From assembly GCF_009914755.1 (NCBI RefSeq), contig NC_060947.1: a stretch of DNA of 64,000 bases; one strand, given 5' to 3'. Of this stretch, positions 58,401-59,482 are shown piece by piece. The position numbers and the translations under genes are program-made. The stretch is from the human T2T-CHM13v2.0 reference genome, Homo sapiens. Position 1 is the first letter of the stretch. Each line of letters begins with the position of its first letter. The notes beneath the pieces are model-generated. The model saw nothing but the letters and a program-made list of their open reading frames with translations. It was not told the DNA's origin and made no database searches.

Positions 58401-59264
58401 CATAGGCACAGGCAAGGACTTCATGTCTAAAACACCAAAAGCAATGGCAACAAAAGCCAAAATTGACAAATGGGATCTAATTCAACTCAAGAGCTTCTGC
58501 ACATCAAAAGAAACTACCATCAGAGTGAACAGGCAACCTACAAAATGGGAGAAAATTTTTGCAACCTACTCATCTGACAAAGGGCTAATATCCAGAATCT
58601 ACAATGAACTCAAACAAATTTACAAGAAAAAAGCAACCCCATCAAAAAGTGGGTGAAGGATATAAACAGACACTTCTCAGAAGAAGACAGTTATGCAGTC
58701 AAAAAACACACGAAAAAATGCTCACCATCACTGGCCATCAGAGAAATGTAAATCAATACCACAATGAGGTATCATCTCACACCAGTTAGAATGGCAATCA
58801 TTAAGAAGTCAGGAAACAACAGGTGCTGGAGAGGATGTGGAGAAATAGGAACACTTTTCCACTGTTTGTGGGACTGGAAACTAGTTCAACCATTGTGGAA
58901 GTCAGTGTTGCGATTCCACAGGGATCTAGAACTAGAAACACCATTTGACCCAGCCATCCCATTACTGGGTATATACGCAAAGGACTATAAATCATGCTGC
59001 TATAAAGACACATGCACACGTATGTTTATTGCGGCACTATTCACAATAGCAAAGACTTGGAACCAACCCAAATGTCCAACAATGATAGACTGGATTAAGA
59101 AAATGTGGCACATATACACCGTGGAATACTATGCAGCCATAAAAAATGATGAGTTCATGTCCTTTGTAGGGACATGGATAAAAGTGGAAATCATCATTCT
59201 CAGTAAACTCTCGCAAGAACAAAAAAACAAACACCACATGTTCTCACTCATAGGTATGAATTGA
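55442..59264 (+). pseudogene. L1 ORF2 (EN-RT) pseudogene (mirror copy 48748-52574, minus strand)
   Basis: MTGSNSHIKILTLNVNGLN...; multiple frameshifts; RT motif FADD changed to FADN in both arms. Confidence 0.92.
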
Positions 59265-59482
59265 ACAATGAGAGCACATGGACACAGGAAGGGGAACATC
59301 ACACACCAGGGACTGTTGTCGGGTAGGGGGATGGGGGAGGGACAGCACTGTAAGTTATACCTAATGCTAGATGACGAGTTAGTGGGTGCAGTGCACCAGC
59401 ATGTCACATGTATACATATGTAACTAACCTGCACATTGTGCACATGTACCCTAAAACTTAAAGTATAATAATAGAAAAAAAA

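What the first reader, a model, noticed from the sequence alone, without database searches (positions are those of the whole stretch)
58566..59482. Outer arms are a mosaic: two different L1 copies partly overwritten by each other, with the intervening DNA lost
Seen, relative to the left arm: 58566-58770 is diverged (many substitutions plus a 4-bp indel that shifts the coordinate sum to 108012); 58770-59209 is near-identical again (one mismatch, at 58939); 59210-59400 is clearly diverged. The 3'UTR diagnostics differ (right ttagtgggtgcagtgcacc; left ttaatgagtgcagcacacc), yet unusual variants are shared (gaaatgtaa, gcatgtcac). Symmetry stops at the A tails. Each tail abuts a different older host L1 (47706-48528 minus; 59483-59850 plus), and both hosts lack their 5' portion. 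Inference: two independent, oppositely oriented L1 insertions were brought together by deletion of everything between them. The fold-back copy then resolved by recombination into the second L1, and/or patchy gene conversion followed.
Basis: partly seen in the sequence, partly recalled or inferred. Interest (0 to 1): 0.75.

Follow-up and report, generated by a model that had tools for sequence, protein, structure and literature searches.

The report
Two L1s fused into a palindrome
An 11-kb mirror-image repeat on the human X chromosome is built from pieces of two different L1 jumping-gene copies, one of which likely folded back and overwrote most of the other; it holds no annotated gene and is mainly a well-preserved record of how neighbouring inverted repeats likely rearrange a chromosome.

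Summary
The arm mosaic is exactly as described: 1 mismatch in 4,538 inner bases, then 18 substitutions plus a 4-bp indel, 1 mismatch in 440, 35 in 184, and 0 in 77. The outer ends are two independent L1 insertions: each is closer to unrelated copies (93-98%) than to the other arm (87-90%).

Three corrections. (1) The two 'different hosts' match one subfamily and fit a single 5'-inverted older L1. The whole block sits inside one still older L1 with only ~118 bp missing, so the lost middle was likely short and repeat-only. (2) 'gcatgtcac' is a sub-lineage marker (404 copies), not a private variant. It suggests that the shared tracts come from the younger parent. (3) The right arm switches from older-type to younger-type sequence inside the G-rich tract 59309-59349, and the left arm likely switches the other way: a probable crossover, with a mutation cluster in both arms.

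Best model: fold-back copying from a break in the 5'UTR (39-bp spacer), a switch into the second L1, one-way conversion and one inversion crossover. The mechanisms are known. 'Palindromic LINEs' are reported at proximal-Xp isochromosome breakpoints; I could not check whether this is that locus.

The parts
48529..54027 (-). Left arm: L1 (L1PA3-like; subfamily label recalled) lacking ~657 bp of the 5'UTR, A tail at 48529-48541, ORF2 broken
53989..54027 (-). 39-bp unpaired spacer of L1 5'UTR. In uninterrupted relatives the end of the spacer is a 3-bp inverted match to its start; one of these three bases differs in the window
   Evidence: L093-L096 have the match, L092 differs
54028..58565 (+). 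Inner right arm, copy of the left arm (1 mismatch in 4,538), lacking ~696 bp of the 5'UTR; its 5'UTR type is that of the younger marker sub-lineage (parent X)
   Evidence: 9 of 16 checkable best 5'UTR relatives carry the marker
58566..58769 (+). D1: diverged tract (18 substitutions, 4-bp indel). Right side leans older-type, ~4.8% from its nearest genomic copy; left counterpart 49243-49450 is younger-type, ~2.5%
58770..59209 (+). I2: homogenised tract, 1 mismatch in 440, 11 shared alleles that are rare among relatives; left counterpart 48803-49242
59210..59308 (+). Proximal D2: right arm carries older-lineage alleles (59240; motif 59293-59315, 1,633 genomic copies); left counterpart carries younger alleles
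59309..59349 (+). G-rich tract; inferred crossover zone. Private-mutation cluster in both arms (7 and 8 in 59297-59360)
59350..59393 (+). Distal D2: right arm younger-type (59350, 59382, 59393), left arm older-type at the same three sites
59394..59470 (+). I3: identical 77 bp carrying the sub-lineage marker at 59404; likely converted onto the left arm (48542-48618)
59471..59482 (+). A tail of the right L1, at an endonuclease-like A-rich site of the host
   Evidence: host relatives at this junction
47706..48528 (-). Host piece A (ORF2 of an older L1, L1PA15-like; label recalled); likely the inverted 5' part of one twin-primed insertion; 2-bp microhomology at 47704-47705
59483..59855 (+). Host piece B (3' end with T-rich tail); same subfamily as piece A, starting ~860 bp downstream of A's end in relatives
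59852..60034 (+). Old L1 fragment with AATAAA at 60006 and an A run from 60030; possible 3' transduction, source not found
47557..47705 (-). Outer ('grand-host') L1, left piece; continues leftwards at 40526-41377
   Evidence: 19 of 19 relatives match 47557-47705
60035..60100 (-). Outer L1 resumes after a ~118-bp gap; continues at 60952-61540 behind a younger insertion
   Evidence: (17 of 19 relatives)

Best explanation
This 11-kb palindrome contains sequence from two different L1 insertions that likely landed back to back, a few kb apart, in one older 5'-inverted L1; the younger one likely broke in its 5'UTR, folded back and copied itself into the older one, replacing the middle, and an inversion crossover plus one-way conversion likely produced the outer patchwork. 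Shown: the tract map, two distinct parents, the chimeric right end, the continuity of the outer L1 and the matching subfamily of the two host pieces. Inferred, in steps. (1) An L1PA15-like element inserted with a 5' inversion and ~118-bp target loss into an older L1. (2) Older element Y inserted into its inverted piece (left) and younger element X into its 3' piece (right), 5' ends facing. (3) A crossover in the G-rich 3'UTR tract (59309-59349) inverted the interior, so each tail now carries the other element's body. (4) A break ~660 bp into X's 5'UTR self-primed on a short inverted match, leaving the 39-bp spacer; synthesis copied 4.5 kb of X and rejoined Y by homology just before 58566, deleting X's promoter, the host middle and Y's 5' body. 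(5) I2 and I3 were overwritten X-to-Y, by patchy repair in the same event or by later arm-to-arm conversion. The order of steps 3 and 4 is not determined.
For: Two parents: neither arm appears among the other's 39 best non-self hits for D1 or for the 3' end. Best unrelated hits are 95% and 98% (D1) and 93% and 95% (3' end), against 90% and 87% between arms. Both tails sit at A-rich host sites. One host: of 24 relatives of piece A, 20 have a piece-B-like end downstream, 18 of them at 824-867 bp, and 12 of 17 readable ends share B's T-rich tail; two loci are in both top-40 lists. One outer L1: 19 of 19 relatives match 47557-47705 and 17 of 19 resume at ~60035, mostly ~118 bp later. Fold-back: both arms end within 39 bp of each other in L1 coordinates, with a 3-bp inverted match in 4 of 5 relatives; 2-8 bp of inverted microhomology is typical of fold-back junctions (PMC3907307, passages). 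Donor: the marker is in 326 of 5,971 younger-type ends against 56 of 3,555 older-type ends, and in 9 of 16 checkable best 5'UTR relatives (P=3e-9 against 4.1%). Crossover: the right-arm motif at 59293-59315 has 1,633 copies, and 0 of 28 checkable ones link to a younger-type end, yet here it does. The left distal combination has only 47 genomic copies. Distances to marker carriers flip across the tract.
Against: No ancestral allele or ape orthologue could be examined. The centre microhomology needs one later base change, and the parental sequence folds no better than shuffles (z 0.07 to 0.37 and -0.49). ORF2 holds no reliable marker of X's sub-lineage (1 of 11 shared, like controls), so 'left D1 and proximal D2 are X' rests on parsimony, low divergence and one shared site (58612). 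The left proximal D2 is as close to intermediate-type copies (3-4 differences) as to marker carriers (4-8). The divergence contrast between I2 and right D1 is not significant (P=0.16). The reconstructed Y has younger alleles at 59218 and 59370, which need micro-patches or chance; the 59218/59240 combination exists in 455 copies. The host has no target-site duplication, and the 59852-60034 piece is unexplained. Relatives were chosen as best hits, which biases the panels.
Confidence: 0.6

Rival explanations
1. Two long inverted L1s were joined by a plain deletion (or by trimming of a palindrome centre), and repeated arm-to-arm gene conversion, not one fold-back copy, made the inner 4.5 kb identical; the structure could then be much older than its 2 mismatches suggest.
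For: Palindrome arms convert rapidly, with inferred mean tracts of ~2 kb (PMC3723533, passages). I2 and I3 show that homogenisation happened outside the inner block.
Against: It needs two independent breaks within 39 bp of each other in L1 coordinates, and a second element at least 5.4 kb long. The homogenised tracts that can be typed point to the same parent, and there is a sharp edge at 58566.
Confidence: 0.17
2. No crossover: the left element is an intermediate-type L1 whose body was overwritten, and the right element took its older-type patches (D1, 59240-59308) by ectopic conversion from a third L1.
For: The left proximal and distal D2 both resemble intermediate-type copies L087-L089. There are no ORF2 markers to exclude this.
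Against: It needs three parents, two ectopic conversions and a spacer flip. No near-identical donor was among the 40 scored hits (best 95% and 93%). It does not explain the mutation cluster in both arms at the switch.
Confidence: 0.15
3. One L1 was duplicated whole long ago and its outer parts simply drifted apart where conversion failed.
For: One shared rare allele in D1 (58749) and an identical last 77 bp.
Against: The arms differ more from each other than from unrelated copies. Linked lineage sites differ. The two tails sit at two different host sites.
Confidence: 0.03
4. The palindrome is an assembly artefact from fold-back reads.
For: Near-perfect inner identity with a tiny spacer is what such artefacts look like (own knowledge). 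No raw reads were examined.
Against: There are two arm mismatches, internal homogenised islands beyond diverged tracts, and coherent nested flanks. Citing papers report palindromic LINEs in proximal Xp from earlier work (locus not verified).
Confidence: 0.03

Closest known systems
Fold-back inverted duplications (Hermetz et al. 2014, PMC3907307; passages read)
   Same: Non-duplicated spacer between inverted copies; short inverted microhomology; one junction in that paper is a hybrid of oppositely oriented L1PA2 and L1Hs.
   Different: Their spacers are 766-70,466 bp and the events are large, mostly terminal, with dicentric intermediates. Here the spacer is 39 bp, the event is interstitial, 5 kb, and rejoined into a neighbouring L1.
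INVDUP-INV-DEL-type complex structural variants made by template switching (bioRxiv 2024.12.19.629504, passages; PMC12350169, supplement search only)
   Same: Inverted duplication coupled to a local deletion through two junctions.
   Different: Here it is part of the reference itself and made wholly of L1. Polymorphism is unknown, and I found no entry at this position in the supplement file searched (file cut when stored).
L1-L1 mediated inversions / transposable element-mediated rearrangements (PMC9675761 and bioRxiv 2021.12.20.472354, passages)
   Same: Oppositely oriented L1 pair, crossover at homologous positions giving chimeric elements.
   Different: Reported pairs have a median identity near 97%, and none of 8 L1 inversions had added complexity at both breakpoints. 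Here the parents were ~91% alike in D1, and the event is combined with duplication, deletion and conversion.
Palindromic LINE elements at idic(Xq) breakpoints in proximal Xp (Koumbaris et al. 2011; not readable, known only through citing passages in PMC4506572 and PMC7336728)
   Same: Highly similar inverted LINE pair in proximal Xp.
   Different: Coordinates could not be compared. This window may be one of those pairs, in which case the palindrome itself is already known.
Large X-chromosome palindromes (Jackson et al. 2021, PMC8327919; passages read)
   Same: Arms kept alike by conversion; rearrangement concentrated at the centre.
   Different: Defined as >8 kb and >99% identical, so as to exclude LINEs, and gene-bearing. 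This one has 5.5-kb arms, 98.7% overall identity and no gene.
Twin-primed (5'-inverted) L1 insertions (bioRxiv 2021.12.20.472354, section 11 read)
   Same: Host pieces A and B: opposite orientation, same subfamily, short microhomology at the 5' junction.
   Different: Target loss of ~118 bp instead of a duplication; the inversion junction is deleted.

Membership tests
Fold-back inverted duplication | Single-copy spacer between inverted copies | tested here: met
   39 bp, 53989-54027
Fold-back inverted duplication | Inverted microhomology of 2 bp or more at the spacer edge | tested here: inconclusive
   3-bp match in 4 of 5 relatives, but one base differs in the window
Fold-back inverted duplication | Terminal deletion or dicentric intermediate (Hermetz class) | tested here: not met
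   Interstitial; the outer L1 continues on both sides. Works like a fold-back, but is not a member of the terminal class
Fold-back inverted duplication | Comparison with the pre-event allele | not testable with these tools
   No ape genomes or human haplotypes held
L1-L1 recombination inversion | Oppositely oriented homologous L1 pair | tested here: met
L1-L1 recombination inversion | Reciprocal chimeras at both breakpoints | tested here: inconclusive
   Right chimera shown (0 of 28); left chimera inferred by parsimony
Twin-primed L1 (host) | Inverted and sense pieces of one subfamily, contiguous in L1 coordinates | tested here: met
   Same subfamily; A ends ~860 bp before B starts and the pieces do not overlap
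Twin-primed L1 (host) | Microhomology at the 5' junction | tested here: met
   2 bp at 47704-47705; weak on its own
Twin-primed L1 (host) | Target-site duplication around the insertion | tested here: not met
   ~118-bp loss of the outer L1 instead; so filed as likely, not proven
Large X palindromes (Jackson 2021) | Arms >8 kb and >99% identical | tested here: not met
   5.5 kb, 98.7% (definition)
Palindromic LINEs at idic(Xq) breakpoints (Koumbaris 2011) | Near-identical inverted LINE pair in proximal Xp | tested here: met
   chrX:55,724,529-55,735,482 in T2T-CHM13 from the supplied annotation
Palindromic LINEs at idic(Xq) breakpoints (Koumbaris 2011) | Coincidence with mapped patient breakpoints | not testable with these tools
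   Paper not held

The most novel reading that the evidence does not exclude
A human-lineage L1 palindrome, younger than about 2 million years, that preserves in one 11-kb locus a crossover between ~9%-diverged L1s focused on the G-rich 3'UTR tract and mutagenic to both products, a self-primed fold-back duplication, and strictly one-way conversion; and that is still flipping, converting and seeding isodicentric X chromosomes in people today.
Probability: 0.2. Interest if true: 0.65.

Novelty: new variant of a known kind. Interest (0 to 1): 0.42.

Why it matters
If right, it shows step by step how two ordinary, diverged L1 insertions can become a near-perfect 4.5-kb hairpin substrate without any segmental duplication. 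The ~55 arm differences are ready-made markers for measuring conversion and inversion rates in pangenome haplotypes. If it is one of the LINE palindromes reported at idic(Xq) breakpoints, it would also explain how that Turner-syndrome hotspot arose. No gene is involved, both arms lack the first ~0.7 kb of the 5'UTR and their reading frames are broken, so no functional role is implied.

Tried and rejected
Local donor for the diverged patches: none of the 5 other L1 copies in the window is close (16-26 of ~204 and 26-45 of ~184 differences from the right arm). Genome-wide near-identical donor: none among the 40 scored hits per query; only the best candidates are scored. Source of the possible transduction 59852-60034: best hit 79%, and its upstream sequence does not match host B; unproven. 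Native hairpin as the reason for the fold-back site: no better than shuffles. Templated origin of the clustered mutations: 11 of 81 and 5 of 81 (16 of 81 for a shorter window) alternative changes fit as well; not accepted. Donor from divergence alone: P=0.16. Donor from ORF2 markers: uninformative. 'gaaatgtaa' as proof of conversion: chance ~0.18. Separate ages for the inner arm and I2: not distinguishable (P=0.17). Literature: 10 full-text searches returned no listing that describes this locus, though only some hits were opened. No entry near this position in the searchable supplements of PMC12350169 or PMC10150506. PMC4344489 has no passage on palindromes or Xp11. Koumbaris 2011, Scott 2010, Warburton 2004 and Akgun 1997 could not be read, and bioRxiv supplements were not seen; any of these may list the locus.

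Full report
Observation. A self-comparison of the window shows one 10,975-bp inverted match, 48523-59488, at 98.7%. Aligning the arms gives a 39-bp spacer (53989-54027) and five tracts on the right arm: inner 54028-58565 (1 mismatch), D1 58566-58769 (18 substitutions and a 4-bp indel), I2 58770-59209 (1 mismatch), D2 59210-59393 (35 substitutions) and I3 59394-59470 (none). Permuting the 54 outer substitutions never gave the observed 270-bp identical run (0 of 100,000), and the 77-bp run has P=0.0018 within D1+D2+I3, or 0.016 at the rate of unrelated pairs.

Two parents. For D1 and for the last 276 bp I searched the genome with each arm. Neither arm appears among the other's 39 best non-self hits. 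Best unrelated hits are 95% (right D1), 98% (left D1), 93% (right end) and 95% (left end), against 90% and 87% between arms. Three sites that co-vary among 19 relatives (59350, 59382, 59393) differ between the arms. Both tails abut A-rich positions of the host sequence where relatives simply continue, as expected of two separate insertions (established L1 biology). A single old duplication is rejected.

One host, not two. Of 24 best relatives of the left host piece (47706-48528), 20 have a sequence like the right host piece downstream, 18 of them 824-867 bp away, and 12 of 17 readable ends share its T-rich tail. Two loci are in the top-40 lists of both pieces. The pieces are in opposite orientation and do not overlap in L1 coordinates, with a 2-bp microhomology at the left junction. 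That is the layout of a twin-primed insertion; 26% of polymorphic L1s are of this kind and 88% of inverted parts are under 1.5 kb (bioRxiv 2021.12.20.472354, section 11). Further out, 19 of 19 relatives of 60952-61500 also match 47557-47705, and 17 of 19 resume at about 60035, mostly ~118 bp later. So the whole block 47706-60034 lies inside one older L1. The lost middle was then likely ~860 bp of host, the rest of the inverted piece, ~660 bp of one 5'UTR and the 5' body of the second L1, unless other insertions were nested there. Against this: there is no target-site duplication, and 59852-60034 is an older L1 fragment whose source I did not find.

Centre. Both arms stop about 660-700 bp into the 5'UTR, within 39 bp of each other. 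In 4 of 5 uninterrupted relatives the three bases at the end of the spacer are an inverted match to its start; the window differs at one of them. Fold-back junctions in patients carry 2-8 bp of such microhomology (PMC3907307, passages). The parental sequence folds no better than shuffles, so nothing here explains the choice of site.

Which parent was copied. The shared 'gcatgtcac' has 404 genomic copies against 9,400. It is found in 326 of 5,971 younger-type ends and 56 of 3,555 older-type ends. Of the 16 best 5'UTR relatives that lie in the part of the genome listed (16 of 39 non-self hits), 9 carry it at the expected distance (P=3e-9). So the inner arm belongs to the marker sub-lineage (parent X), whose 3' end is now on the right, and the marker on the left arm was likely converted in.

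A likely crossover. The right arm's 59293-59315 is an older-lineage motif with 1,633 copies. Among the 28 that could be cross-checked on chromosome 1, none links to a younger-type end, yet here it does. Right D1 also leans old at 58661 and is ~4.8% from its nearest copy, against ~2.5% for left D1 and I2 (the difference is not significant, P=0.16). The left arm is young at 59240 and 59305 but old at 59350, 59382 and 59393, and its distal combination has only 47 copies. Distances to five marker carriers are 9-10 (right) against 4-8 (left) in 59210-59308, and 4-5 (right) against 6-9 (left) in 59350-59393. Two parents with one reciprocal exchange in 59309-59349 explain this. The weak point: the left proximal part is equally close to intermediate-type copies, and ORF2 has no usable marker, so a three-parent history is not excluded.

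Mutation cluster. In 59297-59360 the arms carry 7 and 8 alleles absent from 12 relatives, against a background of 32 in 1,349 (P=8e-4 and 1e-4). One right-arm allele may be decay of the old motif, which gives 6 and P=0.004. No 64-bp window in the 10 youngest relatives exceeds 5. The window was chosen after seeing the data. The cluster coincides with the inferred crossover. A templated origin was tested and not supported. It remains unexplained.

Age. One mismatch in 4,538 bp gives 0.14-0.28 million years (95% upper bound 0.8-1.5) for assumed rates of 0.8-0.4e-9 per year; about 24-47 mismatches would be expected since the chimpanzee split (rates from own knowledge). Ongoing conversion would make the founding event older (PMC3723533, passages).

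Known context. Each step is a known mechanism: fold-back duplication, template-switch complex variants, L1-L1 inversion and arm-to-arm conversion. The locus is below the size cut-off of the X palindrome catalogue. [quoted passage not shown] That paper was not available, so whether it names this pair is open; I think it more likely than not, from recall only. Ten searches and two supplement searches found no description of this locus (listed under Tried and rejected); several key papers and supplements were not visible. Subfamily names (L1PA3, L1PA4/5, L1PA15) are recalled labels, not tool results.

Verdict. The feature is real. It is a new variant of known rearrangement types, in gene-free repeat DNA, of moderate interest to specialists (0.42).

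Noticed in passing
window:59297-59360 and 48652-48715: Both arms carry a cluster of private substitutions (7 and 8 in 64 bp) in the G-rich 3'UTR tract, about five times background; unexplained.
   Followed up: partly
window:59852-60034: Old L1 fragment between the host's tail and the resumed outer L1, with AATAAA at 60006 and an A run from 60030; possible 3' transduction, no source found.
   Followed up: partly
genome-wide: A ~400-copy L1 sub-lineage marked by one 3'UTR base and linked to a distinct 5'UTR type; whether it is a described subfamily was not checked.
   Followed up: partly
window:56675 and 58939: Both arm mismatches in the homogenised tracts are derived changes on the right arm (n=2, not significant).
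   Followed up: no
window:31788-32378 and 33381-33959: A second inverted pair, 591 bp at 92.9% identity and ~1 kb apart, inside older L1 sequence; far more alike than its flanks, so possibly a small inverted duplication or converted pair.
   Followed up: no
window:61357-61726: Tandem duplication of ~185 bp (87.8% identity) inside the outer L1's continuation.
   Followed up: no
window:60101-60951: Younger 5'-truncated L1 inserted in the outer L1, with a matching short direct repeat on both sides (read from the sequence).
   Followed up: no
L067 and L068 (G000:C23:153722408-153725946 and 153590885-153594423): Two hits with identical scores in opposite orientation ~130 kb apart on the X; likely arms of a large known palindrome.
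   Followed up: no
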